From contig JAKMXF010000188.1 in the NCBI GenBank assembly GCA_024704765.1, positions 669,715 to 733,714 of the forward strand: a DNA stretch of 64,000 nucleotides, read 5' to 3'. The stretch comes from Oopsacas minuta (taxonomy: Eukaryota; Animalia; Porifera). Of this stretch, positions 1-64,000 are shown one piece after another. Within the stretch, counting starts at the first letter, position 1. The number at the start of each line of letters is the position of its first letter. The translations under genes and the position numbers were made by a program. Under the pieces are notes generated by a model. It did no database searches and was not told the origin of the DNA. It worked only from the letters and a program-made list of their open reading frames with translations.

Positions 1-744
1 TTGTTTGATAAATTTCCCATTCAGATCAAATACCATCAAACAGCCAGCTTCTGTCTGACTAACAAATACTTTCTGATTAGTAATAGCTATACCAAGCGGA
101 GAGTTCATCTTACATTCTTCAGCTTCATCTCCGAATTTGAACAGATACTTACCATATTCATTAAATGTCTGTACTCGGTTGTTAGATTTATCAGCTACAT
201 AGATGTTATTAGTTCTGTAGTCAACTGCTACACCCCATGGACTACGAAATTGTCCTTCCTCACCACCTGATACACCTCCTACACTCACCACAGGTTCAGC
301 CTTACCCACATAATCTACAACTGGTTGACAACAGATATTTGAGTTTACCACACTAATCTTACCGATACATTTAATGCTATCCAACAATGTATTATCAAAC
401 TCAATTGAGATATTTAGTTTCGAAATATATTCTAACTCTATTTCTCTTAGTTCTTCCTCTAACAGTTTGATAGTTCTAGTTTGAGTTTTCTCTAATCTCA
501 AGGTGGTAAAATGTTCCCGATTAAATTTCAATGCTTTTTCAATTTCAGAGATAGATCGTCTTTGTTTCTCATTTTCTAGTTTGTATTTGTTGTGAATATC
601 TTCCAATTCTTTCAAGAGTTCTCTCTCCCTCTCTTTCACAAAATTTGACATCTCTAGAAAGTAAGTTTCAATCTGAGTTTTGATTTGAGCTGTTTGAAGT
701 TCAAAACTTAATTCTTCTCCTGAAGGGATATAGTTTGTTGCCAT
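1..744 (-). CDS. Coiled-coil + NHL-repeat protein (TRIM-like, no RING seen); the gene's 5' end lies inside the window and it runs off the window start
   Basis: Minus-strand ATG at 744-742 with an in-frame TAG just upstream. The reading frame is open and stop-free to position 1 (248 codons; translated manually). The N-terminus is coiled-coil-like (MATNYIPSGEELSFELQTAQIKTQIETYFLEM...). Downstream come canonical NHL repeats: FRSPWGVAVDYRTNNIYVADKSNNRVQTFNEYGKYLFKFG and SPLGIAITNQKVFVSQTEAGCLMVFDLNGKFIKQ. This ORF is not in the supplied track because it runs off the window edge. It is a paralog of the 45412-47469 gene. Confidence 0.7.
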   Translation of the reverse strand, partial: MATNYIPSGEELSFELQTAQIKTQIETYFLEMSNFVKERERELLKELEDIHNKYKLENEKQRRSISEIEKALKFNREHFTTLRLEKTQTRTIKLLEEELREIELEYISKLNISIEFDNTLLDSIKCIGKISVVNSNICCQPVVDYVGKAEPVVSVGGVSGGEEGQFRSPWGVAVDYRTNNIYVADKSNNRVQTFNEYGKYLFKFGDEAEECKMNSPLGIAITNQKVFVSQTEAGCLMVFDLNGKFIKQ

Positions 745-1740
745 GCTACTAGTGAAAACAATATCCCATTAACTAAACTCCAAAATTTGAAATGTTGAGA
801 GCAAGCCTCTACGACTGAAGATTACGTATGTGAAAATATGGATATGATTATATGGATGAGCTGAAGGATAAGATTATTTGAAAACAAGAGCGCGAGCGGA
901 AGCGCAAAACTAGAGCTCTTGGTCAACACTGTAAGAGGCCAATTCCAATTCATAGAAATTTTCAGAAACTCTAATTCAAAATATGTTACTCCAGCGTGTT
1001 AATTGAGGTCTCAGTAAAGAGATAACCACTACTATTCATCCATTAGTTAGTAATAATATTAGGTACGGGGAATTGGACCCGAAACTTTCACGCGATATTG
1101 TGAGAGGTGAAGGAATTTTTATCGAGTTAGTTACTAGCATGGCGTTACGTGTTGTATGAGTGCATTTACATACTTTATTATACTAGAGGGTGAGAATTTT
1201 TCTTCGAATTAGTGTCAATATTGATCTGCTCTTTTGCGGGGAGCTTTTTGCTACCCCTGATTGTTGGATGGTGTATTTGAAGCGATCTTCTGGCAATGGA
1301 AATAATTTTGATCGAATTAGTTAAGGTTCATGTTTACGAATTTGGGTCTAAATATTTAATTTTGGGTCTAATTCCTACATTACGTACTTTGGGGTCAAAT
1401 TCCGATATTTTCTGAGTCTAACTCCAGCGTCTCAATATATTGTGTAGTTGAATTTCATTTGATAAAATGGAGAAATCCCAATAATGACAATATATTAATA
1501 CAGCAGAGCAGGTAAACTTGATACGGGCGGTGGAGTTGGAAAAGCAAGTTCCAACTAACAGTGCCGTAATCTATATTATTAAATCTCAATTGTTGTTAGT
1601 CTGTCTGTTTGTTTGTATGTTTGTCTGTTGTCAAGGAAAGGATTTACGGTATGTAATTTTGAAATTGTCGCATAACTATGTATTTATCGTGTTTATCAAG
1701 GAAGTAAATAGAATTCAATAAAACTTCACTAAATATATCG

Positions 1741-1870
1741 AACATGCTGAATCCGAATTTCGCATTTTCAAGGTTCCCATATGTAAATTTATTGGGGGTT
1801 TTTATGAATATTAAGTAAACATATTTGCAAAATCTCAAAATTTACGTAGATACTTGCTCTTAACGGCTAC
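1741..1870. repeat. SINE-like dispersed repeat (family GAATCCGAATTTCGCATTTTCAAG...ATATGTAAAT...TTTATGAATA...)
   Basis: Three copies align by eye: 1741-1870, 29722-29850, 29886-29990. Confidence 0.45.
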
Positions 1871-4454: not shown

Positions 4455-7400
4455 TTATTGGGGGGGAGGCTGGTACCCGTAAGGAGGGTAATAGGCTCCG
4501 TACATTGGGTAGTAGGGCATTGGCTGAGCTCCGGGTTGTTGTGGTGGGTGTTGTCCGGGCATTACTCCTGGCTGTGGGGGACCCTGTTGAGGCTGAGCAT
4601 AGGGGTAATTAGGGGGAGGAGCTCCGTACACGGGATAGCCAGGGTAGTAGGGGGTAGGATTTGAAGGATGCGGTGTCACTATTGAGCTTGGAGCAGGCTG
4701 TTGAGGGGGAGGAGCTACAGCACGGGGAGGCATAGGCATCTGTTGAGGGGGAGGAGCAGTCGTTGCACCGGCTGGGACGTATGCAGCTGGACGACCTGGA
4801 CCAGAAGGTTTCTTAGAGCTCGACAAAACTTTATCTAAATCTTTACAGAGATCATCTTTCTCTGTCCGTCTGGCAAATGTCAGGTCCCCTACCCTCTGTT
4901 GACACTTGAGTAGCAGATTAGTCAGATCTCCGTAGAACTTAGCTCCCTCCTCTAGGTTTCCGATAAGCTCATTGAACGCTTCGTATCCACTCTGTAGATC
5001 TTTCAGAACCTTCTCTCTGGCAGCTGCACCATCTCCTTGCTGACACTCATTGACAAACTGAGCGTTGACCTGTTTGATCTGCTCAGTGAGAGCTGATCCT
5101 TTCGTCACAGACTCTTGTACTTGCTGTTGTAGCGAGGAATATGTCTCTTGTAGGTGAGTCATAGAGATAGTCTCTTCGTCTACTGAACCCTCAGTCTTGA
5201 GACACTCTAGGAATTTGTTCGCTGGACTAGGTAAGTTGTCTCTGAGAGAAGATTCGATTACCTCTCTCTCTGCCTTCAAGGTTTCAGACTATATAAGAGA
5301 TATTATGAAATATATACTAAGCATAAATACTAAAAAATAATATATTACCTGTTCATATAGCTGCTTTAAGTTTTGTACAACTTGAGCTGAAGAGCCAGAT
5401 CTGCTCGCCGCTCCGCTAGTAGGAATAGAAGCTACTACAGAAGCTTGATCTTGGCTGAGAATTCCAATAGCTTCTCGATTGGCTTGAAACTTGCTATTCA
5501 CAACCTATTACATTGTGACGTCATAAAATATTGGATAAAACATTCATGTGACGTTATGGAGGGATTTGAAATTTTTGGAACTTAAGAAATACATCCAACA
5601 GTACTCGCCGACTACTCGACATTGGAGAAATTTATAGTTGGTGCTTTCTAACGTCGCTTATCTAAACATTAACTAGCATCAAGGTGGATAACATCACAAA
5701 TATACTACTTGTAGATGCAACTCTAATAAGCTTAACCGATTACGACAGAAGTATTACGTTCGTAATGAAAAGGAACACTAAATTTTTACCACCATCTTCA
5801 TCCAATTCCAATACCAAAAACGATATTACAGCACTTTTTTTGGCGTCATAAAATCACACATTTTCCCGGCAGTATTCGGTTAATCCTAATTCAGTAAATC
5901 ACATTGAGTTAAACTTTAAGTAAAGTTAGCTAGGCACATGATATAACCATGGATGGTCCAGATCACGCGAGAATATATAGTATAATAGACAATTAATACA
6001 ATTATCTTGCCTTATCAGCTCCAGTCGCACTTGATAGAATGCCTTGATACTTAGAAATATCAGCTCTGACGTTAACTGTTAACTGAGCTGAGGGCATACG
6101 CGTCCATCTGTCTCCATACTTAGCTCTAACAATAAACAAATTAAAAGATTATGTACAGTAGTATATATCAACTCATATAATGACGTCACTGACCTACATT
6201 CCCCATCCTCTCTGTCTTCCTCGTTCAGAACTCTAACCGTCTCATCCAGGATCTCTTTGTTCCTAATCAGTAGCTCAGGTAGATTCAGTATCATTTCTTC
6301 TAACCTCACCAATCCTCCTTTGCCCCTGACCTCAGCTGATTTGTCTAGCACGGAGGGTGGGGCTCCAGTACCTGAGGTGTCCTCTAAAGCAGCTGGTAGA
6401 TTATATGACGTCAGCAGTGTAGTGAGTTCCTGTGTATTTGCACGCAGTCTTCCTATCTCAGAGTTTACAAGTCCCATCTTCCTCTGCTCATATATCAGTA
6501 GAGCTTCATTCACTTTCAATGGCATCAGCTGAGAGAATAGGTCTACGAAGTTGGATTGAGGGGCGTTGAATGGGAGAGGCTACAATAATGTTATATATCA
6601 AAATATGATATAGTCAAACTTGTCTATATCGAACAAGAAAAGGACTGACCAAAAGTGGCAATTATAGACAAATGTAGTAGTAATTTGAATATAATGGCAG
6701 TTACTATATTCCCTGCAGGATATTTAAGATAATATAGTGTGAGTAGTTAATGATGGGAACCTAACGGACTTGTCAAAGGTGGACTTAATAGAAAGTGACC
6801 GTTATAGACAGGTTTAACGCCATTTATGGACCAAAAAAATTGTGCCCACTGGCCGCGATAAAGAGGTAAATATAATGGGAGAACGGAGGGATTGCTTTTA
6901 AGTGGCCGATAAGTGCAGGTGACCGTTAAGCACGTTTGACTGTAGTAATATTAAATACTAATAAAATTATAGCCTATAAAGATACCTTAGCTAGTGCTGC
7001 CTTTCCTACTGGTTCTATTGTAGCATACTCAGGAACAGGATCACTATATATCATCTTATTATCCTTCAATTCCTTCTCTAGCTTAGTCTTAACTTTAGCC
7101 AGAACACCCTTGATATCATAGAAGCCCTCGCTTCGCTTGACAGCATCTTCTAGACAAGACACTGATTTCTTGAGTCTGGAAATGCTCTCTCCATAATTCT
7201 GATTCTCCAGTGCTACTTTAGCCTGGCTCTCTTCTGCTAGAGCAAGGAATAAACTCTGTTTTGCAGACACAATAGGAATCCATTCTTTCTCCCATTGAGC
7301 TTTGACTGAGCCCTGTTGGAAAGAGGAGAGAGTATCTGCGTAGAGATCACTGGCCTGGTGAGCTAGCTTAGCAATTATCTTCTCCTGCATCTTATCTTTA

Positions 7401-8997
7401 GTAGCCTGTAGGTATATTCAATATAATTTAGTTGTGTAAATTCACTTCCTTGGTCTCATGGTCTGGTGAATGTAAAACTAGTTCCCAAGTAACAATGGCC
7501 ATAATATCGAGATACAGCTGTGTTGGCCTACTAATGCGCCTATTAGCAAGTTCTTTCAAGGACTTATAGACCATTTTGAATAGGAAATAATTCCTCTCTG
7601 ATAGCAAGTTCGCGTATTAGCAGAGAAATTCGTGTAAATACGAATTGTTAGTAGACGAACTCCACTGTATCATTACCCGACAGATAATATACAGAGGAGG
7701 TGGAAGGTGCAAACCTATCATAAAGTATTTACCTTTAGAAAGAAAGCTTCCTGTGCTTGAGCTAACATAAGGTTACACATAGCAGTGGTAGATTCAGCAC
7801 CTAAGTCTGGAGTAGGAGCAATACTCAGGTGTTGATACACGTCATCTCTCAGACGAGTGAAAGTACCAGCTGCTCCCTGGAAGTGTTTACAGGCAGCTTT
7901 CAATCCCTCGTCAGAATCAAAGTTCTGAGCTTTAGCAATCTGGCACTGAAGAGCTCCAATATTGAATAGGAGGCAGCATCTCTCGAATGCTATGTCAACT
8001 GCTGCATGCTTCTTAGCTCCGGATAGAAACCCACCGATGTTGAAGGAATCTTGCCAAGTAAACTTTATTCGAATCTAAAAAATAGAATATAGAGAGTAAT
8101 GCATTAACATATTATAGATAAGTGTTGTTGCTCGTTTTTGAGTTAACTCAGTTAAGCTTGCCAATTAAGAATTGTTACGTAGAATTGGCTCGGCGGTATC
8201 AATCTAGCTGGGAAAATTTGGACCTATCTTCTACGTTTGGGAGTTTTTAAGAAAGACATTTGATGGATTAGCTCTATTTCTAATGAATATCTACGCCAGA
8301 GACTAGGTAGGACACGTTCTTAACCTGACCAAATCTATCCTTACATAACCAAGTTTACTACCGGATAGTTCGTTCTTCCATTCAACCGGATGTTATCAGT
8401 ATTTGACTATCCGCAGAGATGCCAACTCTCACGCCTTACCAGTGAGTCTCTCGCTTTTCAGAGGTCAAAAATGAATTTTCGCGGCATTTTATGATTCTTC
8501 ACTCCACATTTTGAAGCTAAAATGCCAAATCACACGGCTTGACGAGACGCCTGGTTGGCATCTATGTATTCGGTATTGCAGCTATTATCGGTTCGAGCGG
8601 TATAAAACATCATCCTAGCTGACCCCACATGTTGAAACTAATAATGAACAAAAAACTGTTGCATATGTCTAAAAGGACCCTCAGATATAGGTATACCTAT
8701 CCTGGTAAGTCATTAAGTATGGTCGTATATTACCTGACTCTCAGAAATTGGAAGTTTCGTATCTACCACTGTCAGTTGGTCAAAATAGCGAAGTAACACG
8801 TCTAAGCTAGCTTCGTGTTTGTCGGGTACTAGTACACAAGAAGCCTCTCGCAGCTGGTTGAACTCTTTGATCGCGTCTTTGAACTTTCCTGGCGCTTCAT
8901 CGTAGCTGTTGCGAATGAATTTGTTGAAATCTGAAGTGAAGTCAACAGAAGTAGACTTTTTCAGGATTGGAGAAAGGAACTGAAAACCTGTCGCCAT
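4455..8997 (-). CDS. PDCD6IP: ALIX / programmed cell death 6-interacting protein homolog (Bro1 domain + V domain + Pro-rich tail); 7 exons
   Basis: Exons on the minus strand: 8734-8997 (ATG at 8997; MATGFQFLSPILKKSTSVDF... matches the ALIX Bro1 N-terminus), 7733-8074, 6986-7405, 6194-6579, 6011-6125, 5349-5504, 4455-5288 (includes the stop). Exon phases all join cleanly, giving 2517 nt or 838 aa. The ordered match to ALIX is strong, for example IRIKFTWQDSF, ACKHFQGAAGTF, LMLAQAQEAFFLK|ATKDKM, AKYGDRWTRMPSAQL against ALIX AKFKERWQRTPSNEL, and a PPxY/Pro-Gln-Tyr-rich C-terminus. Introns are GT-AG except one GC-AG (AAG|GCAAGA at 6010-6009). Confidence 0.88.
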
Positions 8998-11356: not shown

Positions 11357-14300
11357 ATGGCTTCAGGTGATGTGTTCACGAATATGTTCGGTAACACCTT
11401 ACTACGAATTGAAGGTGGAGTAACTAAGGAGATCGAAACATCTACTCTAATCAAAGACGGAGTAATCGCACTCTACTTTTCTGCTCATTGGTGTCCCCCC
11501 TGTCGTACCTTCACTCCTACTCTAGGTGATTGGTACAAAAAACTAACTTCTGGAAGTTTGAAAGATAAACTCGAGATTGTCTTTCTCAGCTCTGATCAGA
11601 GTGAAGAAGAGTTTAAAGACTACTACTCTAGCATGCCCTGGTGTGCTCTCCCCTATTCAGACAGGGAGAAGAAGGTTGATATTTATCTGTACTGTCATTA
11701 GCTTTATTGATTGATATATCTATTTATTTCTTAGGCTGAGCTTTCTAAGAAATTCGGTATCAAAGGTATTCCTTCTCTCATATTCCTGAACGCACAGAAC
11801 GGGAAAATAATAACACGTGAGGGGAGAGAGGTTGTGAATGAGGACCCAGAGGGGGAACAGTTCCCCTGGAAGCCAAAGTCAATTTCTGAAGTCCTCTCTT
11901 GCCTGGAAGACAAACTTGTCGACAATAAGGGAGGACAGTATAAGCTCTCTGAGATACGAAAAGATAAATATCTAGCTCTTTATATTTCAGCTCATTGGGT
12001 GGGTAGCTATATGAAATATACTGGATCCCAGTTATAAGAGACAGTAGGTCTCCGTCTAGAATACATATTCCCCTCCGGGTATGAACTTTTCGATGCCCTG
12101 ACGTCATATTCATTAGGTTCTACTGCAGTGGTTTTCCAAATGTCTTGAATTTATGATGAATATATGATGTTAGGACGGGACGCTAGGGGCGTTTGAAAAA
12201 TAAATAGGCTTAGAGACGGGTTGCGATCAAAAGCTCCGGAACACTATTCTATTGTATATTGAATTTTTGATACGTAATATAATTCTACAGTGTCCTCCTT
12301 GTAAAGTATTCACTCCTAAGCTAGTGGAGGCCTACCAGAAGCATCAGGACAAAGGTTTTGAAGTAATTTTCATATCGTTTGACAGAGATGAAGAAAGTTT
12401 TAAAGATTATTTCGAAACCATGCCATGGAAATCTGCCAATTACGCTGATGCGAACAAACTCGGACCAAAGATAGCAAGGAGATTTGGAGTGAAGGGTAAA
12501 TATTCTCTAATTTGCTTGTTTGTTGATTATTATGTGTTTATCTTTATTCATATATACATAGGTATTCCTACTCTTGTGTTAATGGATAAAAATCTTGAAG
12601 TAATTAACCAGAACGCGAGATCTTTCATAGAGCATGATGAGAAGTTTGAGGTAATAATTCGTATTTATTATATGCTGAATGATTAGCATTGATACTATGC
12701 TATATGACTTTCTAATTACAATTTATCATATATAGTGGGTATTACTTATAAGAACATATCGGTTATAAGAATATATCGGTTATAAGAATATACTTTGATA
12801 TTCCCAAGGGTGTTATCATCAGCGATAACCACTAGGCCGGATCGAGAAAAGTATACATCGTCGCTTCAACTTCTACCTAAGGCAAAAGTTGCCTTTACTC
12901 TTTTCCAGGAAAATGCGAGACATAAATTTGAAAATATTTCGAGTTGACCCTTGCAGTTTTATATTTTTGCTGTGTCACTTTCGCAAACTTGACTTTAAAT
13001 TGTCCGAATTTTCTAATTCCTTTGACTTAGCCCCTATAGATATATTATTTGGTAATAGTAAGTCGCATATTTGCTTTCGAATGATGTATTAGGCTAATTT
13101 CCATGTCCAAAGGTACTCAAGTTGTCAATATATCTTTTGCATATTCTATCATACCCTAATAATATTATCCACCCCCTTTTTTTCCGAAGATTTGCAAATG
13201 CATAATTCTTACAAAAAATAGCTATATCCTCACCAAACTTAGTATAATTCTGTATCTAGATCCAAATTCATCAATAGATTACCACAAAGAAATTTTACCA
13301 ACTTTCCTTATCTCTTGCTCTTAACTTAGTTGCCATTTATCTAGCATGGAATTTATGGTCAATTATTATATCTAAATAAAAACTCACTCAAATGACTCAT
13401 ATTATAGAGTGATTATATTCCTATAATTTATGTAATTTTGAATATGGTAGGATACACGCTTAGTATTGTAGTATTTCATCCTGTTTTTGGTTATCCTGGA
13501 CCCATCCCAGAAAATCTACTCCCGATAAAACTAGATCTATACAATCATTATAGTATGCTTAGAAATGAAGATTCTAAATCAACTAGAGATGATATAGCGA
13601 AAGAATTAACTGAGGTATTAGTGCGTATCTATAATTTGGCTTCCATACCCACAAAATCAGAGCTCCAAATATATCAGTACATCATTTCTGATATTATCGA
13701 GAGAGCTAAATATTACAGAAAAGTATCCAAAACAAGCAATATCCTGACGGTATCCAGCCTATAATTCCGAATTCAATGTCTTGTTCGACGTCTCAAGTTG
13801 CAAATGCCAAATACAAGAAGAAAAAAGTTTTGCTCTCTCGATAATATCAGAAATGATGTACTGATATATTTGGAGCTCTGATTTTGTGGGTATGGAAGCC
13901 AAATTATAGATACGCACTAATACCTCAGTTAATTCTTTCGCTATATCATCTCTAGTTGATTTAGAATCTTCATTTCTAAGCATACTATAATGATTGTATA
14001 GATCTAGTTTTATCGGGAGTAGATTTTCTGGGATGGGTCCAGGATAACCAAAAACAGGATGAAATACTACAATACTAAGCGTGTATCCTACCATATTCAA
14101 AATTACATAAATTATAGGAATATAATCACTCTATAATATGAGTCATTTGAGTGAGTTTTTATTTAGATATAATAATTGACCATAAATTCCATGCTAGATA
14201 AATGGCAACTAAGTTAAGAGCAAGAGATAAGGAAAGTTGGTAAAATTTCTTTGTGGTAATCTATTGATGAATTTGGATCTAGATACAGAATTATACTAAG

Positions 14301-31863: not shown

Positions 31864-31896
<33 letters not shown>

Positions 31897-44623: not shown

Positions 44624-44785
44624 CTAATTGGACTTGATTATTTTGTAATTAAGTTTTTTACTATGCAGACTAAACTATACCCAGTATAGTGGCTCAGTAC
44701 TAAAAGGTTGACTTTTCTTAGCATATATGTGTGTGTTCACTCTCCACTTCACACCTTTTGAGATTAACACACAAAATTGGCATGT

Positions 44786-45054: not shown

Positions 45055-45411
45055 TATATTCGTAGTGACATCTAATAGAGCATCTGACATTTGAAATTTT
45101 TGTAATATGTAGATATTTTCACAACTTTTAGGTGATTAATCATATTTTCATACATGTCTCGCTAAATTTGTACCTTCCAGCGTTTTCCTTCACTCAGGTT
45201 GGCAAGTATACAAATGTCAAAATAGTATAAGTGTGAATATAATTATATATTGCCAAAACGCATCAGATCTATTTTAATTCCGAATACAATTTGACAATGA
45301 TACTCAAAATTATTTACTGTCAATCAAAGTATAAACACCGTCATCAGTAATTACTATAATTGGGTAATAACCACCATTAGAATACAAAAGATAAATAATG
45401 AGATAGAGAAT

Positions 45412-52000: not shown

Positions 52001-55000
52001 TCTACTAGCGTTATTGCTAAGAGGAAAGCTCTCTCTCTCAATCAGAATGAAGGAGTTTATGTCAGAAATGTAACAGACGGTAAGATACGTTCTGTGCTAG
52101 GCCCACAGTGTTACATTTTAAAGGCAGATGAAGAACTCTACGAGAAGCCCCTCTCTCCAGAATGTGAGAAGATCCTGAAACAAGGTGGATACTCCTCAAC
52201 ATCTGATGATGTCAGGAAGATAGCTTATTTTGAGAATTCTATCGATCCTATTCTTAGCTCAGGGAAGAGAGATAGAACTAAGGTTATCACGTACAGGTGA
52301 GGGATATTTTGAAAGTTATAATGTTTTGATAATATAATTTATCTTAAAATATATATCAAATGAGACTCGCTGAAATATCAGATAACAGGTTTCTTATACT
52401 AGTTATATCTTCAATTACGGTGTTTGATTCTACCGACGATATATTAACCGTTAGAAATTTCGCTAGAATTATTCTCCATTGATATAATTTCTTTCATAAG
52501 AGCGTTTAAATCGTCAATCTTAATATACTCTATCTCTATCTATGTCATAGAAACCTCTGATTGTAGTTTAGTTTATGTCTGTCTTACTTTATCTCTTCCG
52601 CTTTTATGTTTGTTATTGTTATTAATACGCGGAAATAACGTTATTAATAGCAATGTTTCTACTCAAGTACTATCGCTATATTACAATTATTCATGTATGG
52701 TTACTGTATTGAAATATGAGAAGTACTTATCAGTTGTAATAAATTCCATTTATTCGGTACATATCTACTCCTAATGTTATTGCTTTATTTACTAGTACAA
52801 GCAGTGGCTACCTGCACAAGCAGGTAAGCTGTGTGTTATTCAAATATAGATGTTAGCACAAATTATCTTCGGTGTTACACAGATTAATATATGGCCACAG
52901 TTTGTACGTTAATGCACATTCTTTAAGTAGTTTGTAGACGTGAGGAAGTTCGCGGTTTTGCTCACTGGCACGGCAAAATGTATATTTTATGTGCTTAAGT
53001 GCGGGTTATTTAATTACATGCATGCTGAATACTTTAGTTTTACCTAGACCTGTCGGTACTACTTTATTAACCTGATTTGTTCCAGCTCCCTTAATTTCAT
53101 GAGGCTACTGGATCGATAGGATATCTATCATTTAGATTAGGAGCTTATTATGGGAGGAATTCATAGTCAATGAAATTGATAATCTTCATGATGGGACAGA
53201 TGGGTTTTAGAAAAATATATATTTTCTAATATTTACTCGTGATAAATTACGTAATTAAATCTTTGTGCTCCAAATCGCGTTAATAAGAGCATATCATATA
53301 ACTTCCGAGAAATAGCGAGATTAAGAGTTGTATTTTCCTCTGTGTTTTAGACGGGACGTGACATAATATTCAAAGCTATAACCTGAATAATTCCGCATTT
53401 TGGCATTTTTTTAAATTAAAAATCCTTCTAATCAGTAGTATATTTAGTCTATTTCTCCAAATATAATTACTCCAGGTAATGAAACTGATGATAAAGTACT
53501 TATAAAATTGCGACTGTCCGGTGTTAGTGCTAGTGAGTATATCATAATTATAATTAGGTATAATAATCTTAATATATTATCTATCTGATAATATACACTT
53601 GCAAAACTGCAATTAGGCAATATTATCTGACATTCAATTATAAATCCATTAGTTATATTGTTGTTTATAGCATCCCTGCGTCTGCTGCACCTTACTTCTT
53701 CCTTATTATAGCTATTATCTTCTTATTTATGTAAATCTGATCAATATTCACTTTTTAAACTACATAATTAAACAGTTTACCTACATTTTGTAGATAAGTT
53801 TGTTAGTAGTTGAGTCTACTGCTAGTTAATATGATATATATTATTCCATAACTTGCAAACGAATAGTTCAATATTCGGTTCAATCAACTCCGGTTATAAC
53901 TAATGCTCAGAACCATTATTTCATTTCAACTCAACTACTTGCAAGCAATGTATATGTTTATTATATTATAATGCCCGTGATACATGGCTATTATATATAT
54001 ATGGAAGTTTGTAAGGCATTCTAAACCATTGTCATCAGCAAGGAGTATAAAGTATTATATGATATTCTATTAAATCTGCAGGTAGCGTAGTGTGTCAGTT
54101 GTGTTTGTAATAGTATTACTTTTATGCCATTAAAATGACTAGTTTTGTATATATTCTGTCCAATCTCTGTACAACTAGTCTACTAGCTTATTTCTAGAGA
54201 ATAGATGTTACTATTTTCCACCCTTATCATGACTTGTATATAAATTCCCAAAAGCCAGAATAAATCGGGTTATTACCAGGTTTAGCCATCAATTGAGAGT
54301 TAGAGATCTCACCTATAAACACAGCTGTTATCTCGAGTAGTAGTCAAGAGACAATACTAAGGTGTTGCTGAATAACATTCTAGAATTAACTATATATTGC
54401 CATAGTAATTCATAAATTTTGCTATCTTCTTAACATCTCTCCTAGATATTCCATGTTTGGTTAATACATTTGAAATATATTGATATTAGTATACTTGACG
54501 ATCCCATGAAATATTTCTTTCAGGTGTTCACAATTCATATTTGTAGCTATGAGATCATACCGAGATTAGTGTTAATTGTAAGTGCAAATTTGGAAAGAAT
54601 GTGTATAAGTTAATATCATTATTCTTGACTAAGTTTATTCCTATTACAGAGCGTCTTCAACTTGGTAATCTTGCTTGTAGCATTTGTTATGTTAGCATGT
54701 TTGTTGACGTGAGAATGCCAATTACGTTTCTTAGTCACCACAAATTCGTTTTGTGTAAGCTACAAAGATACAAAACATGAAATAGATAACAGAAATCTTG
54801 ATTCTGTATGCGTGTATATGGGCATATGCACGTGTAATTTTCGTGGGTACTGGAGACACTTAATAATGTATGCGATACTGTAAAACATTATTGCATTTGG
54901 TGTGCGGTTACGTTCCTCAATACTTGGAAGTCATACCGATTTCTTCCACCATTCTGTTTTTTTGCATTGAATATTTTCAACTAAATTCCGAGAATACTAT

Positions 55001-56767
55001 ACACATACAGTCAACTCCCGATATGTATCAAAACTCAAGGGACGGGGCGGCGATAATTATAATCAATATCCAACATCCAGTAACGCGATCCCTCAGGGGA
55101 ATTAAAAATCCGTTCGAAATAGCGAATGTTTGAGTTAACTGTTTACAAAAGTACTAAAGTTACAACCAAGGGAAAAATATTGTTTCGAGTTAAAGAATGT
55201 TAACTGTACTTCGATATTAGCAGAGTTCGATATAACCGATGAAACATGGTATTTGGACGGTTTGGGACCATATTTGTACAATTTTAGACTTGGATATATC
55301 AGTGTTCGATATAGCGGGAGTTGACAATATGTGTACATATCTTAAATGCATTGATAAACACTGATACTGCTTATTTCATTATACGTGGTACGCTTATGAT
55401 TGTGTTGCACTAATCAGCTGTGCAATTACTATTTACATTGGACTCTCGTTAAATATCATGGATTGTTAAAAACCGTACTCCTTATACAGAGTAGTAACAA
55501 CCAAATTAATATTCATTGTAAAAGCATTGATAAACTTGAGAATGTAAGTATTACCCATCTAATATTTACAAGAGTTCAATGTAATTGGCTTACTTTCTGT
55601 CAGTATTATCATCTGGTATTATCATGTAGATGTCCACACAACACAGCAATACAAGTGTATGACTATGTGAACAAGACATCTCGCGTGTTATTCGGGCCTG
55701 ATCTGGTAATGCTACAACCACACGAGAACTTCAACGTACTCAGTCTAAGTGCAGGTAAACCTAAGATGGAAGGTGCTCTCAAGTCTCTCTGTCTAATGCT
55801 AGGACCTGATTACATTACTGATAGTATTATCGTAGAGACATCTGATCACGCTAGACTATCTATATTCTACTCAGTTAATAATCACTTCGAGTACGATAGG
55901 AATAACCCAGAACAAGTCGAGAGTCTGTTTGCACTGCCAGACTTCATTGGATTTGCAGCTAGACACATTGCATCTAGGGTACGAGCGTCTGTGTCTCAAA
56001 TTAATTTTGATAACTTCCACAAACACTCAGCTGCAATTGTGAGTCGTTCTGTGTTTGGAGTAGACGCAGAAGGAAATATCGGACAGTATTACAAGTTCCC
56101 AGCTAATAACTTGGTTATAACAAACATTGATATTCGTAATATTGAGCCAGAGGACAAACACATGAGAGACAGTTTATTCAAATCTGTTACCATGGCTATT
56201 GAAATAGCGATTAACTCTACAGAAGCAGCTGCTCAACATGACGCAGAGCGACTGGAGCAGAAAGCAAGAGGTTTGTTAGAGAGGCAGAAACTAACGAATG
56301 AGCAGGAGAAGGAGAAGGCACGTAAACAGCTGTTACTGTTACAAGCAGAATGTGCTGCTATTGAATCATCAGGGATGGCTAAGGCTGAAGCACAAGCTCT
56401 GGCCGAGAAGATGCTTATTGAGTGCAAGAGCGAGATCGAGGTTAGTAAGCTCAAAGCTGAAGCTAATGAGATAGAGCTAGATTCTAAAATTAGCTTTATC
56501 AAGAAGAGTCAAGCTGCTGAGATTAAATACCAGACTGAGTTATTTGTCCTAGACCGTGATAAGACTAAATCTATGGCTGAGATAGAAATTAACAAATTTG
56601 GCTGTATGGTGGATTCGTTAGGCTCTGGTACTTTAAGGGCTATTGGACAGGCAGGCCCCACTACTCAGAAAATGCTCGAAAACACTCTTGGTTACAAGAA
56701 ACTACTCTCTAGTGGTACTACAAACCCTCTTACTTTGTTCTCTGAAGGGAAAGCTGCCTTTTCGTAA
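49083..56767 (+). CDS. MVP: Major vault protein; 5 exons
   Basis: Exons 49083-49469, 50816-51111, 51307-51647, 51927-52296, 55630-56767. Total 2532 nt, or 843 aa, with consistent phases. The match to MVP is collinear: IRPLHYVHILNRNNNVTSLDLGPK; AGDIWQLKGPLTYTPQPEV; GEEWLVT...LGPHQFCVILNPIGEDGHNKLGRRLVVKG; GEKWLILGPCEYIP; CPHNTAIQVYDY...VLFGPDL..VLSLSAGKPK; the shoulder and cap-helix region QHDAERLEQKARGLLERQKL; and the C-terminal coiled coil. Start codon taken as the first ATG, though an upstream exon is not excluded. Confidence 0.88.
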
Positions 56768-58633: not shown

Positions 58634-60442
58634 ATGGACACCCCAAGAATGAGCAGTCTCCTGGCATGGTTATGCACATTCCCACACTGTAACAATATTA
58701 CCAAATTTGAATCTCTAACTGATGGGAGAATTCTAGCATTAAGTTTGCATAGAATAGATCCTGCATTTTTCACTAAAGAATGGTTGGTTCAAATTGCTGA
58801 GGTAGGTGAAAGTAACACTCAATTGAAACAGAGAAACATCGGAAAGATTGTGAAATCAGTGGTTGATTATAATCGTGAAGTGTTACAGGTATCTAACACA
58901 TCTATTGGGAACTTGAATGTAGTTGAAATCGTGAATGGTAGCAATCATCAGGATCTCTGCCAGCTTATTCTGGCTCTGCTTAACATAGCTGTAAACTGTG
59001 AGAAGAAGGAAGAACACGTGAGTAGAATAATGCAGCTAGACAGTGCTGTACAGAAGGACATTATGGAGATCTTACAGGAGGGAATGGAGGTACAGGAAAT
59101 CGTGCGTGAGGCGAATAATCATGTAGATATACACTGGGATCTGGAGATGGTGACGAAGGAGAGAGATATCCTATTTCAGGAATCTACTCATAAGGAAACT
59201 GCATTGAAATCTATGGAGGAGGAGAAAGATGCTTTGCAATGTGAACTGGACCGCTTCAGAGAGCAGGTGAGCTCTCTGGAGGAGAAATCTCACAGATGTG
59301 TAGAGTTAGAAATACAGGTGGAACAGCTGCAGGATGATCTGACAAGTTTACACCGTAGTAGGGTAGAGCTAGAAACTTCTGTTGAAGAATTGAAAATAAA
59401 GAACGAGAACTTAGAACATGATTTAGGTATCAGTCAAGATAAGAACATCGATTATCATAACAAGCAATCGGAAATGGAACACATGCGAGATAAGCTGGAT
59501 GAAATGCCTCAGTTGGAGCTAAAACTTGCCAATTACGAGAAAAAATTATTGAGACTAGAAAATGACAATAGGAATGTTCTACTTCTGAAGGAAAACTTGG
59601 TTTTTCTCCAAAATAAGAACAAAAAATTAATTCAAGAAAAGTTGAATATGGAAAAGGGTATGAAAGAGCTTGAGGAGAAGAGATTTCATTCTCTGCAACA
59701 AAACGAACAGCTACAGTTAATGCAATCTGAGATTAACGAATATAAAACTAGTTTAACACAAGCCGAGAGGCAACTGATCAACTCAGAAGAACAAGCATCT
59801 TCTCTACAGAATGACCTTAGGAAAATAACTGAGGAGAGAGATAACTTGTTATGTGCTTTAACAAGCACACCTGAAGATCCTAACTTACTATCTCTAGAAG
59901 CTTCTCTCCTGCCTGGTGACAGACTAGACTCAATTACAGAAGTATTCACGCCTGAGATGAAAGAACGACTGGCTAGATTGGAATCAGATAACTCAGAATT
60001 GAGAAGGAAAATACAGCTCACTAGCTCAAGTAGTAAAGTTGAAGGAGGAGATGAAATAGAAGCGGAAAGATCACTCTCTCCTGGAAATATTGAAGTGTTT
60101 GAGAAAGAACTTCAAATTGACGAACTCAAAAACGAGTTAAGTTCTCGTAACAAAGAAGTTAGCAAACTTAAGAACTATCTCGTAAAGATGAAGAAAATAA
60201 AGATAAAACCTGAAAAAGATGAAGTGATGCCACCTCGTATGGATCATGAAGATAGACTAGTTATGGCTTCATGGTATAGAATGGGTCTGGAGGTACACAA
60301 TAGAGCAGATCTATATAAGGCACCTGCAGCTGGTAATAATACGCGAGTCGGTCAGGATGTAGCTAATATGAAATATGATTCTACCCCAAAGAAAGATATT
60401 GAACTACCCCCACTTAAACCACAGGAACCTAATGACCAATAA
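58634..60442 (+). CDS. HOOK: Hook-family microtubule-tethering/dynein adaptor protein, intronless
   Basis: 602-aa ORF. The N-terminal Hook domain LLAWLCTF...ILALSLHRIDPAFFTKEWL...LILALLNIAVNCEKKEEHVSRIM matches the Hook consensus (LLTWIQTF...IDPAYF...LQLILGCAVNCE). A long coiled coil follows, with the conserved C-terminal LVMASWYRMGL (compare SAWYNMGM). Confidence 0.82.
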   Translation: MDTPRMSSLLAWLCTFPHCNNITKFESLTDGRILALSLHRIDPAFFTKEWLVQIAEVGESNTQLKQRNIGKIVKSVVDYNREVLQVSNTSIGNLNVVEIVNGSNHQDLCQLILALLNIAVNCEKKEEHVSRIMQLDSAVQKDIMEILQEGMEVQEIVREANNHVDIHWDLEMVTKERDILFQESTHKETALKSMEEEKDALQCELDRFREQVSSLEEKSHRCVELEIQVEQLQDDLTSLHRSRVELETSVEELKIKNENLEHDLGISQDKNIDYHNKQSEMEHMRDKLDEMPQLELKLANYEKKLLRLENDNRNVLLLKENLVFLQNKNKKLIQEKLNMEKGMKELEEKRFHSLQQNEQLQLMQSEINEYKTSLTQAERQLINSEEQASSLQNDLRKITEERDNLLCALTSTPEDPNLLSLEASLLPGDRLDSITEVFTPEMKERLARLESDNSELRRKIQLTSSSSKVEGGDEIEAERSLSPGNIEVFEKELQIDELKNELSSRNKEVSKLKNYLVKMKKIKIKPEKDEVMPPRMDHEDRLVMASWYRMGLEVHNRADLYKAPAAGNNTRVGQDVANMKYDSTPKKDIELPPLKPQEPNDQ

Positions 60443-61105
60443 TATTCATTTTAGCAAATTCTTAAAGAGTAAAATCTGTCTAATCATAATATATTGTGGT
60501 CTAACACATACTAGACTGACAATTGATACAATAAAATTTCTATAACATTTTGTAAATGCTTTGAATTACTGTGCATTATTAACTTATTTATCCTCTTAAG
60601 AATGATATATTACATCTCATTATCGAGATGTTTAGGATTATTCTTTGTAAGATAGCATCTTTAATACACTACATATACACGATAGCCTTCTTTAAAGTTA
60701 TATACAGTGGGCATTGCTTATAAGATCAGCGTTTATTAATAATATCGGTTATAAGTATATGTTCTAATAAGCGATAATAACTTATCTGGTTTTATTTATA
60801 GGGAAGTAGGGAGCACAAAATTATTGCTGCTATAGGATATTATTCTGAATTTCTTAAGAGGTACTTTCGGTTAGTACGTACTAATTATTGTTCCCAAAGG
60901 GTACGGTACGTCTTATCCGAGTTGGAGAGCTCTACAGTATAATAAATATTCTGCAAATGAGCAAAATTAATTTCGTGATGTCATAACTTGTAAGTTGTAA
61001 TGTATATTATAGCAGGCGTAGAAAACATCACGATTCATAGAGGAAACAAATAATTAATGTGTTCCTTGAACTTATCTGTAATCTATGTGTGCTTTCCAAT
61101 TATGT

Positions 61106-62318
61106 TCGGATTAGTTAATTAATCTAATTAATTAAGTGAGGTTTTTAGGTTATGAAATAAACAGGGGGCTAACGAATCAGCTGGTAATTCCTATCTTGGA
61201 TTGTAGGTAGCATCCTTTATAGGTTTGTTTACTATTGACAATTATTGTAGTTTTCTAGTTCTGTGGAATACTTTATCATATTCTCGTTTATGAAGGAAAT
61301 TATCGAACTCATTAATTCCCAATTAATAAATATAATTATACATATACTACTTTCCCGTTAAGTCTTTTGATAAGGTAGAAAGAATTGTCACATCAGCGAG
61401 TATAAAGTAATGCCAGTAAAATGTTAACCTTATTTCACATATGAGTGTGAGGTTTATTACAGACATAGATTAAGAGAATAATCTGATATTTTTCTAACAA
61501 CGATCGAGTTACACAGGTCTAATTTACATTACTCGACTATCTTTAAATTGTCGGATTTTGAAATAGCAAGGTTCCGGATTAATGAGGTTGTTTTCTGTAC
61601 AAAAACGATCCGTGAACAGAAATAATGTCGGTTTAGGGAAATTCCGGATTACACAGGTGTCGGATTACGGAGGTTCCACTGTATCTATAATATCATTTTC
61701 GCAGGTAAATTCCGCAGGCACGCTATAAGTAGCTGCAGGCCCAGCCTGGGGGGGATGAGCTGGCGCTGGCAAAGCCATTTGATAGGATTATATCTTCTAA
61801 ATTTCCACGGGAAATAAGTGTGTTGATTACTGCTACAAAGTTAAACTCATAATGATCCAGAATAATATCTGATAGATGAGTTTACTGATAATTAATACAT
61901 TAGAAAGCCAGAAATATGTTGAATATAAAAGATCAAATTTAATCTATGTCTGTAATAAACCTCACACTCATATGTGAAATAAGGTTAACATTTTACTGGC
62001 ATTACTTTATACTCGCTGATGTGACAATTCTTTCTACCTTATCAAAAGACTTAACGGGAAAGTAGTATATGTATAATCACATAATTAGAATTTATAATTA
62101 CTCTAATATGTATAATTATATTTATTAATTGGGAATTAATGAGTTCGATAATTTCCTTCATAAACGAGAATATGATAAAGTATTCCACAAAACTAGAAAA
62201 CTACAATAATTGCCAATAGTAAACAAACCTATAAAGGATGATACCTACAATCCAAGATAGGAATTACCAGCTGATTCGTTAGCCCCCTGTTAGTTTCATA
62301 ACCTAAAATCTCACTTAA
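61106..62318. repeat. Large imperfect palindrome (arms about 61106-61480 and 61940-62318, roughly 95% identical with indels) around a roughly 460-bp core
   Basis: The reverse complement of 61940-62290 reads ...ttaagtgagattttaggttatgaaactaacagggggctaacgaatcagctggtaattcctatcttggattgtaggtatcatcc.... This matches 61130-61215 and continues through ...tgtgaggtttattacagacatagattaa. The core holds a truncated Tc1-like MITE end (61545-61681) and a GC-rich segment. Confidence 0.7.
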
Positions 62319-64000
62319 TCCGAATTATAGTTTACTAGTATGTTGAAAATTTTGTTTACTTACAAGTGTGTTGAATCTAGTACACTGCTAGTATAATATT
62401 ACACAACCATAAGGCTTGCATTAACTTTTAACAACTTTTTCGTTTTCTAATAATGTTGAATTATTGAGCTTCCGACGGGCAAGGGCCTGTGCCTGCCAGG
62501 ACTTGCTGGCAGGCACAGTTAAATTTTCCGCAGGCCCGGTATGACCTGCGGATTGTTAGACTTTGTGCCAAAAATTAATTAATTAATTGATACTCCAGCA
62601 TATTACTATGCATACCTTCTCCGTATTTGAGAAATAAGAATGTACTTAGATTGTGAATACAGTGGATCCTGATCCTATCAAAATATGGTCAAGTGACCCA
62701 TCAAATTGCTGGAATTTTCATGTTGAGTATGAATATGGTTGTTAAAATTGGTGTTTACATTGATTCGATGCGATTTGAAGAATTTACAGCCTGGGAGATG
62801 TTCCGGCGATTAGCTGACCGCCCGCCCAGAAAAATAAATAATTCGCGATACCTCCATACAATACCCATATATTTTTACAATATATTTAGCTATCTCTGTG
62901 TCATTTTCATACTAGTTACTTGTATCAAATGAACAATTTTATTGCTATGCTGCCCAACTATATATGGTATATGTAGAGGAACATAATATTTACCAGTATA
63001 ATGCAATCTGTAATATACATCTGGATCAATAATTATGATATACGTACTATGCACTATTGTACATCCATTAGAATACTTATCTCTTAGGCTCTATCTCCCT
63101 CCATACATGGAAAAGTTTAGATAAATGAGAGAAGATTGAAATTCAATAATATATAACTACTGTCTTCTCAGAGTAAGCCGCGAGATCTCGTCTGTACAAT
63201 AATAAGCACCCAAGTGCTGTTCAGGGACTTTTTGTATAGGCATAGGCATCACCTCACGCTTTATCTGGCCTCGACATAACTGGTTCTGAGATATATTGGT
63301 TAAAACTCCTAAAATACCACTGGAGTAACAAGAAGGTTACATACTATAGTCTAGTTAATACACTGACTCTATGAGTCAGGGATAGAGCCATCGATGGGCC
63401 GGAAGGAACAACTGAAGAGGACCATTTATAGGGTACAGTTTCACTTAATTTTGCTATACACCTCGCTCGAGCGAAGTTATGCATATTCATTGACCTTCCT
63501 TTAATAGTATATTATAAATATTGTAATCGATAGTATCACATATTTAATTCGTAGTAAAGAATCTGATTAACAATTATTATCTGACTTCGAGGTAAAATCT
63601 GCTGAGTCCATCCACTTCTTCTGTACTTTGCACCAAGTGTTTTGTGAGCACGATGGCTAATTACAATATCATTTCGACTGGTTTCTATGGAACTAATTTT
63701 GTCCTTTAGTAATGTATTTATTCTCCTGTATTTGCAACGCTTATTTTAGCTGAATTATTCATTTACTTCACTTCTGTAAAGGATTAAATCACCCAATAAA
63801 CACTTAACAGTCTAGCTCTAACTCCTCGATTACATTACATATACGCCAATTCGTAATTTGATCAGTGGCGTAGCCACGGGGGGGCAAGGGGGGGCACTTG
63901 CCCCCCCTTCCTATTGTGAACTAACGTTTTTGTCCGGCCTTTAGTAGTGTTCCTATTTCAACCAAGTACTGGGAACTGGAATAAATTATGATTTACCATT

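What the first reader, a model, noticed from the sequence alone, without database searches (positions are those of the whole stretch)
1..64000. Intronless genes interleaved with intron-rich genes
IFT52, Hook, TRAF, prosaposin-like, pseudokinase-Kelch and the NHL-like gene are each a single exon of 418-1082 aa. Neighbouring ALIX (7 exons), kinesin-6 (16 exons), MVP (5 exons) and NXN (5 or more exons) have many short introns (60-80 nt) plus longer ones. IFT52 and Hook are multi-exon in most animals. Either these are processed retrogene copies, or this lineage has extensive intron loss in a subset of genes.
Basis: inference. Interest (0 to 1): 0.5.

Follow-up and report, generated by a model that had tools for sequence, protein, structure and literature searches.

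The report
Ancient intron loss in glass sponge
The mix of intronless and intron-containing genes is real, but it is the normal, already published state of glass-sponge genomes (about 60% single-exon genes) and comes from old, lineage-wide intron loss, not from recent retrogene copies.

Summary
The window comes from the glass sponge Oopsacas minuta: three ORFs match its annotated proteins exactly.

**Observation: confirmed.**
- Six complete genes are single uninterrupted ORFs: pseudokinase-Kelch, IFT52, prosaposin-like, TRAF, NHL-like and Hook.
- ALIX has 7 exons, NXN 6, kinesin-6 16 and MVP 5.

**Interpretation: intron loss, not retrogenes.**
- In three to four other glass-sponge assemblies, one of them Vazella pourtalesii, pseudokinase-Kelch, IFT52, prosaposin and Hook are also single ORFs. 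They lie in the same order, next to an MVP gene split at the same four places.
- Synonymous sites between these species are saturated and dN/dS is 0.03-0.12. The state is therefore old and the genes are functional.
- IFT52 has 14 introns at shared positions in a homoscleromorph sponge and a sea anemone. All were removed precisely here.
- A coral Hook gene has 29 coding exons.
- I found no poly(A) tract, no target-site duplication and no paralogue.
- Seven single-exon genes out of 11, in random order, is what the published genome-wide figure (9872 of 16340 transcripts) predicts.

**Limits.**
- The removal mechanism is inferred. cDNA-mediated intron loss is my preferred reading.
- Very old retroposition followed by loss of the parent gene cannot be excluded.
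- TRAF and NHL-like had no comparators.

**Verdict:** real, ordinary for this lineage, already known.

The parts
1..768 (-). Partial single-ORF gene with a coiled coil and NHL repeat (TRIM-NHL-like). It runs off the left edge of the window.
   Evidence: Stop-free ORF. Pfam NHL at E = 3.3e-11.
4455..8997 (-). ALIX/PDCD6IP, 7 coding exons: 8734-8997, 7733-8074, 6986-7405, 6194-6579, 6011-6125, 5349-5504, 4455-5288. Introns are 659, 327, 406, 68, 506 (GC-AG) and 60 nt.
   Evidence: Spliced model has no internal stop. BRO1 matched 5-384 of 385 and the ALIX V domain 2-295 of 295.
11357..16326 (+). Nucleoredoxin-like gene, 6 coding exons: 11357-11674, 11735-11998, 12291-12495, 12562-12650, 15464-15560, 16025-16326. 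Introns are 60, 292, 66, 2813 and 464 nt.
   Evidence: Two Thioredoxin_8 domains. All six exons are conserved in relative L002.
12833..14705 (.). Perfect 878-nt inverted repeat with a 117-nt spacer, inside NXN intron 4. The orthologous intron in relative L002 is about 41 nt.
18098..20293 (+). Pseudokinase-Kelch gene, single exon, 731 aa. Equals KAI6655622.1 (LOD99_2120).
   Evidence: Single ORFs of 731, 736 and 731 aa in three relatives. dN/dS 0.05.
22408..23664 (+). IFT52, single exon, 418 aa. Equals KAI6655623.1 (LOD99_2121).
   Evidence: Single ORF in relatives. Fourteen ancestral introns are absent, and the sequence is colinear across their positions.
25728..28976 (+). Prosaposin-like gene, single exon, 1082 aa. 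Equals KAI6655624.1 (LOD99_2122).
   Evidence: Single ORFs of 1087, 1104 and 1042 aa in relatives.
31067..41779 (+). Kinesin-6-type gene, 16 coding exons and 15 introns (71-2331 nt).
   Evidence: The kinesin motor matched 1-327 of 327 in one stretch spanning residues 14-456.
32596..33543 (+). Degraded Tc1/mariner-type transposase (HTH_32 + DDE_3, spread over several frames) inside kinesin-6 intron 3.
43322..44623 (+). TRAF-type gene (TRAF zinc fingers + MATH), single ORF, 433 aa.
   Evidence: No comparator in relatives. The exact product is not in the protein collection.
45412..47469 (-). Gene with a coiled coil and a divergent NHL-like C-terminus, single ORF, 685 aa.
   Evidence: No Pfam hit. 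Matches PDB NHL domains: Thin at 3.7e-8, TRIM2 at 3e-3.
49083..56767 (+). Major vault protein, 5 coding exons: 49083-49469, 50816-51111, 51307-51647, 51927-52296, 55630-56767. Introns are 1346, 195, 279 and 3333 nt. The last 45% of the CDS is intron-free.
   Evidence: The same five pieces with the same boundaries occur in L001, L005 and L006.
58634..60442 (+). Hook, single exon, 602 aa.
   Evidence: Single ORFs of 599 and 605 aa directly downstream of MVP in two relatives. A Vazella transcript is colinear with the genomic ORF.

Best explanation
The window is ordinary Oopsacas minuta (Hexactinellida) chromosome. Its intronless genes are the single-copy orthologues of genes that have many introns in other animals.

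They lost all their coding-region introns before the Leucopsacidae (Oopsacas) and Rossellidae (Vazella) lineages split. Since then they have stayed in place under purifying selection. The neighbouring 'intron-rich' genes went through the same process less completely.

The removal was exact at the codon level. The most likely mechanism (inferred, not shown) is reverse-transcriptase-mediated loss. In that model a spliced cDNA recombines with the genomic copy and erases several adjacent introns at once, preferentially towards the 3' end.

Shown: orthology, conserved order, age, precision of removal, and absence of retrocopy marks. Inferred: the cDNA recombination step.
For: **Identity of the window**
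- Three ORFs are 100% identical to O. minuta proteins on one 733,714-bp contig.

**Orthologues in other glass sponges**
- In ENA assemblies ERZ25766962, ERZ20067936, ERZ25072740 and ERZ26869290, pseudokinase-Kelch, IFT52, prosaposin and Hook are uninterrupted ORFs of nearly the same length and in the same order.
- MVP there is split at the same four positions.
- The ERZ26869290 Hook ORF matches a Vazella pourtalesii transcript at 603 of 604 residues with no gap. That mRNA is therefore colinear with the genome.

**Age and selection**
- pS is 0.6-0.88 (saturated) and pN is 0.07-0.29. dN/dS is 0.03-0.12.

**Outgroups**
- IFT52 has 15 coding exons in Corticium and at least 14 in Nematostella. Thirteen of the 14 introns fall in the same or adjacent alignment column.
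- The glass-sponge proteins have no gap at any of these junctions. Small gaps of 1-2 residues lie a few residues upstream of two of them.
- Porites Hook3 has 29 coding exons.

**No retrocopy marks**
- The longest A run is 7 nt. A-richness downstream equals the window background.
- Flank repeats are no longer than in controls.
- No second copy in the window.
- Only one O. minuta IFT52 among the 120 best of 976 homologues.

**Fit with published genome figures**
- 1.59 introns per gene (PMC10280926).
- 9872 of 16340 single-exon transcripts in O. minuta and 12409 of 19578 in Aphrocallistes (PMC10282587).

**Weak 3' depletion of retained introns**
- MVP is intron-free over its last 45% and ALIX over its last 33%. 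Combined P = 0.03.
Against: - Precise removal and missing poly(A)/TSD do not separate in-place cDNA-mediated loss from very old retroposition followed by loss of the parent gene. Synonymous sites are saturated, so any such marks would have decayed.
- IFT52's neighbours in Corticium and Nematostella differ from those here. In-place loss therefore cannot be shown by deep synteny.
- The 3' bias is weak: the mean relative intron position is 0.43, and the t-test gives P = 0.13.
- Paralogues were excluded only through annotated proteins and the window, not by a whole-genome search.
- TRAF and NHL-like have no comparators.
- UTR introns cannot be seen without RNA data.
Confidence: 0.8

Rival explanations
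1. Ancient retroposition with loss of the parent. Each intronless gene began as a processed cDNA copy inserted at a new site in an early glass sponge. The intron-containing parent was later lost, so the retrocopy is now the only orthologue.
For: - Complete and precise absence of all 14 IFT52 introns and of all Hook introns.
- No shared neighbours with Corticium or Nematostella.
- Francis et al. propose retrotransposition for non-syntenic single-exon genes (PMC10282587).
Against: - It would have to happen, with parent loss, for thousands of genes (60% of the gene set).
- Neighbouring genes show partial loss with retained, conserved intron positions. Retroposition does not produce that.
- There is no positive mark of insertion. 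This is uninformative at this age.
Confidence: 0.13
2. Recent processed retrogenes. The intronless genes are young L1-type retrocopies of intron-containing parents that still exist elsewhere in the genome.
For: Only the absence of introns. A 21-nt direct repeat flanks the NHL-like gene.
Against: - No poly(A) tract or TSD.
- The 21-mer belongs to a 50-nt dispersed repeat, with an inverted partner forming a MITE-like unit.
- Four genes are syntenic and intronless in species separated by saturated dS.
- Only one O. minuta IFT52 appears among the listed hits.
- The Hook search found one glass-sponge cluster, then nothing above 31-33% identity.
Confidence: 0.03
3. For TRAF and NHL-like only: these are members of lineage-expanded families that spread as single-exon units, by DNA duplication or retroposition. 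They arrived with a block that is placed differently in O. minuta.
For: - They lie in a 20-kb stretch (about 29-49 kb) between prosaposin and MVP. Three relatives lack this stretch: their gaps are 0.8, 3.5 and 2.6 kb.
- NHL-domain single-ORF genes sit at other positions: the window's left edge, and L008 3446-4753.
- Their exact products are not in the protein collection.
Against: - The same block holds a 16-exon kinesin-6. The block therefore moved as DNA, not as cDNA.
- There are no close paralogues within the window.
- No comparator data exist.
Confidence: 0.3
4. Gene-model artefact. The long ORFs hide in-frame, stop-free introns, or have further coding exons, so they are not truly intronless.
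For: NXN intron 3 (66 nt) is in frame and free of stops, so such introns exist here. The Hook, TRAF and NHL-like ORF products do not match any deposited protein exactly.
Against: - IFT52 is colinear with outgroup proteins, with no insertions.
- A Vazella Hook transcript matches the genomic ORF with no gap.
- Three ORFs equal the deposited annotation.
- Pfam domains are complete from the first to the last profile position.
Confidence: 0.04

Closest known systems
Single-exon-rich, compact hexactinellid genomes (Santini et al. 2023, PMC10280926; Francis et al. 2023, PMC10282587)
   Same: Same organism and same phenomenon. The papers report 1.59 introns per gene. They count 9872 of 16340 (O. minuta) and 12409 of 19578 (A. 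vastus) single-exon transcripts. They also report extensive microsynteny between glass sponges. The window reproduces those figures (7 of 11 genes).
   Different: The papers give counts only. Here I show gene by gene that conserved multi-intron genes lost every intron precisely. I also show that the loss predates the Oopsacas-Vazella split and that retained intron positions (MVP) are conserved. A full-text search found no paper analysing intron loss in hexactinellids.
Reverse-transcriptase-mediated intron loss (cDNA recombination model of Fink 1987, later developed for yeasts and other eukaryotes; cited from my own knowledge)
   Same: Precise removal, several adjacent introns lost together, and a tendency for surviving introns to lie towards the 5' end (MVP and ALIX here).
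   Different: The 3' bias is weak in this sample (combined P = 0.03; t-test not significant). No reverse transcriptase source is seen in the window. The recombination step is not observable from sequence.
Processed retrogenes of mammals and Drosophila (LINE-mediated retrocopies; from my own knowledge)
   Same: An intronless coding sequence of a gene that has introns in other species.
   Different: - No parental copy, poly(A) tail or target-site duplication.
- The position is conserved among species with saturated synonymous divergence.
- These genes are the only orthologues.
Massive intron loss in other compact animal genomes, e.g. Oikopleura dioica (from my own knowledge)
   Same: A lineage-wide drop in ancestral introns in a small, gene-dense animal genome. 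Introns that remain are often very short.
   Different: As I recall, Oikopleura also gained many new introns and lost synteny. Here the retained MVP introns and the gene order are stable across glass sponges.

Membership tests
Processed retrogene (retrocopy) | An intron-containing parental paralogue exists in the same genome | tested here: not met
   - IFT52: only one O. minuta protein appears among the 120 listed hits. The next hits are 82-88% identical proteins from other assemblies.
- Hook: one glass-sponge cluster, then at most 31-33% identity.
- No extra copies in the window.
- A whole-genome DNA search was not possible.
Processed retrogene (retrocopy) | A 3' poly(A) tract downstream of the copy | tested here: not met
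   The longest A run within 1 kb downstream is 7 nt. The maximum is 12-14 A per 20 nt, equal to the window background and to the multi-exon genes. At saturated dS this test has little power for old events.
Processed retrogene (retrocopy) | Flanking target-site duplications | tested here: not met
   The longest flank repeats are 10-11 nt, against 9-15 nt in mismatched-flank controls. The 21-nt repeat around NHL-like is part of a dispersed 50-nt repeat.
Processed retrogene (retrocopy) | Location not shared with orthologues of related species | tested here: not met
   Pseudokinase-Kelch, IFT52, prosaposin, MVP and Hook lie in the same order in the relatives. Not testable for TRAF and NHL-like.
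Lineage-wide intron loss | Orthologues in sister taxa are also intronless | tested here: met
   Single ORFs of matching length in three to four other hexactinellid assemblies. A Vazella transcript is colinear with the genomic Hook ORF.
Lineage-wide intron loss | Outgroups carry introns at conserved (ancestral) positions | tested here: met
   IFT52: 14 introns in Corticium and Nematostella, 13 of them in the same or adjacent alignment column. Hook: 28 introns in Porites, but positions were not compared because identity is only 28%.
Lineage-wide intron loss | High genome-wide share of single-exon genes and low intron density | not tested
   Taken from the literature: 1.59 introns per gene (PMC10280926) and 60% single-exon transcripts (PMC10282587). 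The window agrees, with 7 of 11 genes.
RT-mediated (cDNA recombination) intron loss | Exact excision without loss or gain of codons | tested here: met
   The glass-sponge IFT52 proteins have no gap at any of the 13 alignable ancestral junctions. Gaps of 1-2 residues lie a few residues upstream of two of them.
RT-mediated (cDNA recombination) intron loss | Surviving introns biased towards the 5' end | tested here: inconclusive
   The intron-free 3' portion is 45% in MVP, 33% in ALIX, 24% in NXN and 14% in kinesin-6. Fisher combined P = 0.03, but the mean relative position is 0.43 and the t-test gives P = 0.13.
RT-mediated (cDNA recombination) intron loss | Recombination of a reverse-transcribed mRNA with the resident gene in the germ line | not testable with these tools
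   This needs population or experimental data, or genome-wide statistics.

The most novel reading that the evidence does not exclude
Glass sponges went through an early, near-complete purge of ancestral introns and have been static since. The introns that survive are kept because they carry function. Two observations fit this: MVP intron 4 stays long (2.1-5.3 kb) in all species compared, and it holds a 205-nt element that is 73% conserved between Oopsacas and Vazella although synonymous sites are saturated. If so, hexactinellids would be among the most intron-poor free-living animals. They would also be a clean natural system for asking which introns are indispensable, and whether syncytial tissue or germline biology favoured cDNA-mediated loss.
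Probability: 0.2. Interest if true: 0.5.

Novelty: already known. Interest (0 to 1): 0.2.

Why it matters
**For genome scanning:** it is a caution. In this lineage, lack of introns is the default and does not flag retrogenes or horizontal transfer.

**For biology:**
- The gene-level picture is 14 of 14 IFT52 introns and all Hook introns removed precisely.
- Intron positions in MVP are stable.
- Gene order is conserved across families.

Together these show that the glass-sponge intron deficit is old and stable. The published genome papers state this only as counts. A genome-wide intron gain and loss reconstruction in Porifera would be needed to make it more than a confirmation.

Tried and rejected
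**Searches that gave nothing**
- A chimeric Hook+TRAF+NHL-like query to the word-indexed protein search filled the 8000-candidate limit and returned nothing.
- The Hook N-terminus alone found 61 candidates, none significant. Both searches were wasted. The Hook relatives came from the exhaustive representative search instead.
- Exact look-ups of the O. minuta IFT52 gene position failed, so the official exon tables for this scaffold could not be read.
- Exact products of Hook, TRAF and NHL-like are not in the collection.
- Rfam and tRNA scans of the window found nothing. Scans of two conserved non-coding stretches gave nothing in one and only a chance-level mir-724 match (18 bits against a gathering score of 83, E = 0.94) in the other.

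**Leads considered and dropped**
- The 21-nt direct repeat flanking NHL-like looked like a possible target-site duplication. I rejected it because it is part of a dispersed or MITE-like repeat.
- Poly(A) and TSD tests were negative, but they carry little weight for old events.
- IFT52's neighbours in Corticium and Nematostella share nothing with the window, so deep synteny could not settle in-place loss against relocation.

**Not possible with these tools**
- Outgroup gene structures for MVP, ALIX, NXN and kinesin-6 could not be fetched. Whether their retained introns are ancestral was tested only within glass sponges, and only for MVP and NXN.

Full report
**Source and gene map**

The window is AT-rich eukaryotic DNA of about 35% GC. 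Three of its long ORFs are identical, residue for residue, to GenBank proteins of the glass sponge Oopsacas minuta. These are KAI6655622.1, KAI6655623.1 and KAI6655624.1 (LOD99_2120 to 2122), all on one 733,714-bp contig. O. minuta belongs to Hexactinellida, Lyssacinosida, Leucopsacidae.

- Kinase + Kelch. The HRD motif reads HRG in all four species compared, so it is a pseudokinase.
- IFT52, with all three of its domains complete.
- A saposin-repeat protein.
- TRAF zinc fingers plus MATH.
- HOOK_N plus the HOOK coiled coil.
- A 685-aa protein with no Pfam hit, whose C-terminus matches solved NHL domains at E = 3.7e-8.

**Checking the observation**

Each of the six genes is one uninterrupted ORF. 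A seventh single-ORF gene, with an NHL repeat, runs off the left edge of the window.

For the four split genes I chained the coding ORF segments through GT-AG junctions. ALIX intron 5 uses GC-AG. All four models translate without internal stops and give full-length domain matches:

| Gene | Exons | Domain check |
|---|---|---|
| ALIX | 7 | BRO1 5-384 of 385; V domain 2-295 of 295 |
| NXN | 6 | two Thioredoxin_8 domains |
| Kinesin-6 | 16 | motor 1-327 of 327 in one stretch |
| MVP | 5 | the expected series of vault repeats and shoulder |

Two details need correcting:
- Only 8 of 30 introns are 60-82 nt, the median is 327 nt, and MVP has no short intron.
- These genes are 'intron-rich' only by local standards. 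They carry 1.6-3.9 introns per kb of CDS.

**Is the pattern more than chance?**

It is not. Francis et al. count 9872 single-exon transcripts among 16340 in O. minuta and 12409 of 19578 in Aphrocallistes vastus (PMC10282587, Table 1). Santini et al. give 1.59 introns per gene (PMC10280926). With a fraction of 0.604, 6.65 of 11 genes are expected to be single-exon, and 7 are observed (P(X>=7) = 0.54). The order along the window has 7 runs against 6.1 expected under shuffling. The interleaving is what this genome looks like everywhere.

**Related species**

The IFT52 search found proteins 82-88% identical in ENA assemblies. Fetching their contigs gave several loci.

*ERZ25766962 (L001), ERZ20067936 (L002) and ERZ25072740 (L008):*
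- All three show the order pseudokinase-Kelch, IFT52, prosaposin, then MVP pieces.
- The first three genes are single ORFs of 731/736/731 aa, 424/437/426 aa and 1087/1104/1042 aa.

*Hook:*
- An exhaustive search found one close cluster, with a 605-aa member 76% identical over the full length.
- The contigs ERZ25072740 (L005) and ERZ26869290 (L006) carry a single Hook ORF of 599 or 605 aa. It lies directly downstream of a five-piece MVP.
- L005 and L008 overlap on one 1.07-Mb contig. The whole series from pseudokinase-Kelch to Hook is therefore contiguous there.
- The L006 Hook ORF matches a Vazella pourtalesii transcript-derived protein at 603 of 604 residues with no gap. This identifies that relative as Vazella (Rossellidae). 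It also shows directly that the mRNA is colinear with the genome.

*Exon boundaries:* translated comparison of all these loci with the window places the MVP exon boundaries at the same window coordinates in L001, L005 and L006. It also recovers all six NXN exons in L002.

*Divergence:*
- Synonymous differences are saturated (pS 0.6-0.88), while pN is 0.07-0.29.
- dN/dS is 0.03-0.12 where it can be computed.
- The mosaic of intronless and split genes is therefore old, stable and under purifying selection.

**Outgroups**

I mapped annotated proteins back onto their own genomic loci.
- IFT52 has 15 coding exons in the homoscleromorph sponge Corticium candelabrum and at least 14 in Nematostella.
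- In a five-way protein alignment, 13 of the 14 introns fall in the same or the adjacent column in sponge and cnidarian, so they are ancestral.
- The three glass-sponge proteins have no gap at any of those junctions. Gaps of 1-2 residues lie a few residues upstream of two of them.
- Removal was therefore exact.
- Hook3 of the coral Porites harrisoni has 29 coding exons over 29 kb. The O. minuta Hook is one 1.8-kb ORF.
- Outgroup intron densities are 10-13 per kb of CDS. Even the split genes of the window are therefore probably depleted.

**Retrogene marks**

- Within 1 kb downstream of each intronless gene, the longest A run is 7 nt.
- The richest 20-nt window holds 12-14 A. This is the same as for the split genes and as the background distribution of the window.
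- The longest exact repeats shared by upstream and downstream flanks are 10-11 nt. Mismatched-flank controls give 9-15 nt.
- The one exception is a 21-mer around NHL-like. It is part of a 50-nt repeat that has an inverted partner 222 nt away, so it is a MITE-like element and not a target-site duplication.
- No second copy or pseudocopy of any of these genes lies in the window.
- Only one O. minuta IFT52 appears among the listed homologues.

**Mechanism**

What is shown is complete, exact and ancient removal of introns from resident single-copy genes, alongside partial removal in neighbours whose remaining intron positions are conserved.

The best-fitting known process is reverse-transcriptase-mediated loss, in which a spliced cDNA recombines with the gene. 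It predicts exact junctions, concerted loss of adjacent introns, and survival of 5' introns. The first two predictions fit. The third is only suggestive:
- MVP has no intron in its last 45% and ALIX none in its last 33%.
- The combined P is 0.03.
- The mean relative position of all 30 introns is 0.43, which is not significantly below 0.5.

Very old retroposition followed by loss of the parent would leave the same junctions. It cannot be excluded, for two reasons: poly(A) tails and duplications would have decayed, and IFT52's neighbours in Corticium and Nematostella are unrelated to those here. It is less economical for 60% of a gene set, and it does not explain the partially depleted genes.

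**TRAF and NHL-like**

These two genes have no comparators.
- They lie with the 16-exon kinesin-6 in a stretch of about 20 kb between prosaposin and MVP.
- In three relatives the same two genes are only 0.8, 3.5 and 2.6 kb apart.
- The block is therefore placed differently in O. minuta.
- Because it contains a 16-exon gene, it moved as DNA.
- Whether TRAF and NHL-like are old orthologues or family expansions remains open.

**Verdict**

It describes the normal condition of hexactinellid genomes, which both genome papers already report as summary counts.

A full-text search found no paper that analyses intron loss in hexactinellids. The gene-level evidence here therefore adds detail: exact loss of all ancestral IFT52 introns, loss predating the Oopsacas-Vazella split, and stable retained introns. 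It does not add a new kind of thing.

Noticed in passing
window 12833-13710 and 13828-14705: A perfect (100%) 878-nt inverted repeat with a 117-nt spacer lies inside NXN intron 4 and inflates it to 2813 nt. The orthologous intron in relative L002 is about 41 nt. It is either a very recent foldback insertion or an assembly artefact. The ORF inside it has no Pfam match.
   Followed up: partly
window about 29000-49080: A block of about 20 kb (minisatellite, kinesin-6, TRAF, NHL-like) separates prosaposin from MVP. In three related glass-sponge assemblies these two genes are 0.8-3.5 kb apart, so this is a rearrangement specific to the O. minuta arrangement.
   Followed up: partly
window 54344-54548 (MVP intron 4): A 205-nt intronic stretch is 73% identical to L006 6596-6806, in the same intron of Vazella, although synonymous sites are saturated. 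It has no Rfam match and no obvious ORF. This intron is long in all species compared (2.1-5.3 kb).
   Followed up: partly
window 24886-25216: An intergenic stretch between IFT52 and prosaposin is 68% identical over 349 nt to L001 11450-11779. It may be a promoter, a UTR or an unannotated small gene. The only nearby Rfam match (mir-724, 24804-24856) is at chance level.
   Followed up: partly
window 1567-1833, 29730-29942, 32220-32479: A dispersed repeat of about 130 nt occurs in both orientations. Copies at 73-89% identity also occur in L005 and L006, so this repeat family is shared across glass-sponge families.
   Followed up: no
window 32596-33543: A degraded Tc1/mariner-type transposase (HTH_32 and DDE_3 in different frames) lies inside the 2331-nt kinesin-6 intron 3. 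Relative L002 has a DDE_3 ORF between IFT52 and prosaposin.
   Followed up: partly
window 30063-30887: A minisatellite with a 25-nt unit and about 30 copies, mostly 99-100% identical. It creates spurious ORFs of about 200 aa in three frames on the minus strand.
   Followed up: no
window 61143-61473 and 61939-62308: A second foldback-like pair of inverted repeats (arms about 330 nt, 98-99% identical, about 465 nt between them), downstream of Hook.
   Followed up: no
window 6005-6011 (ALIX intron 5 donor, minus strand): ALIX intron 5 appears to use a GC-AG splice pair (AAG|GCAAGA). No GT donor keeps the frame open there.
   Followed up: partly
window 44782-45059 and 48054-48104: A MITE-like unit with 28-nt terminal inverted repeats lies just downstream of the NHL-like gene. 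A related solo 50-nt copy lies upstream of it. Together they mimic a target-site duplication.
   Followed up: yes
L005 13707-14423: One relative carries a partial tandem duplicate of the C-terminal half of Hook (241-aa ORF, about 60% identical to window 59627-60397), 2 kb downstream of the full gene.
   Followed up: no
window 58634-60442: Glass-sponge Hook is very divergent. The best hits outside the group are about 28-33% identical, and only 203 cluster representatives reach E <= 0.001. The word-indexed search could not find any homologue.
   Followed up: partly
L008 3446-4753: One relative has a 435-aa single-ORF NHL gene on the minus strand between NXN and pseudokinase-Kelch. It is absent from that position in the window. 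NHL-domain single-exon genes seem to occupy variable positions in these genomes.
   Followed up: partly
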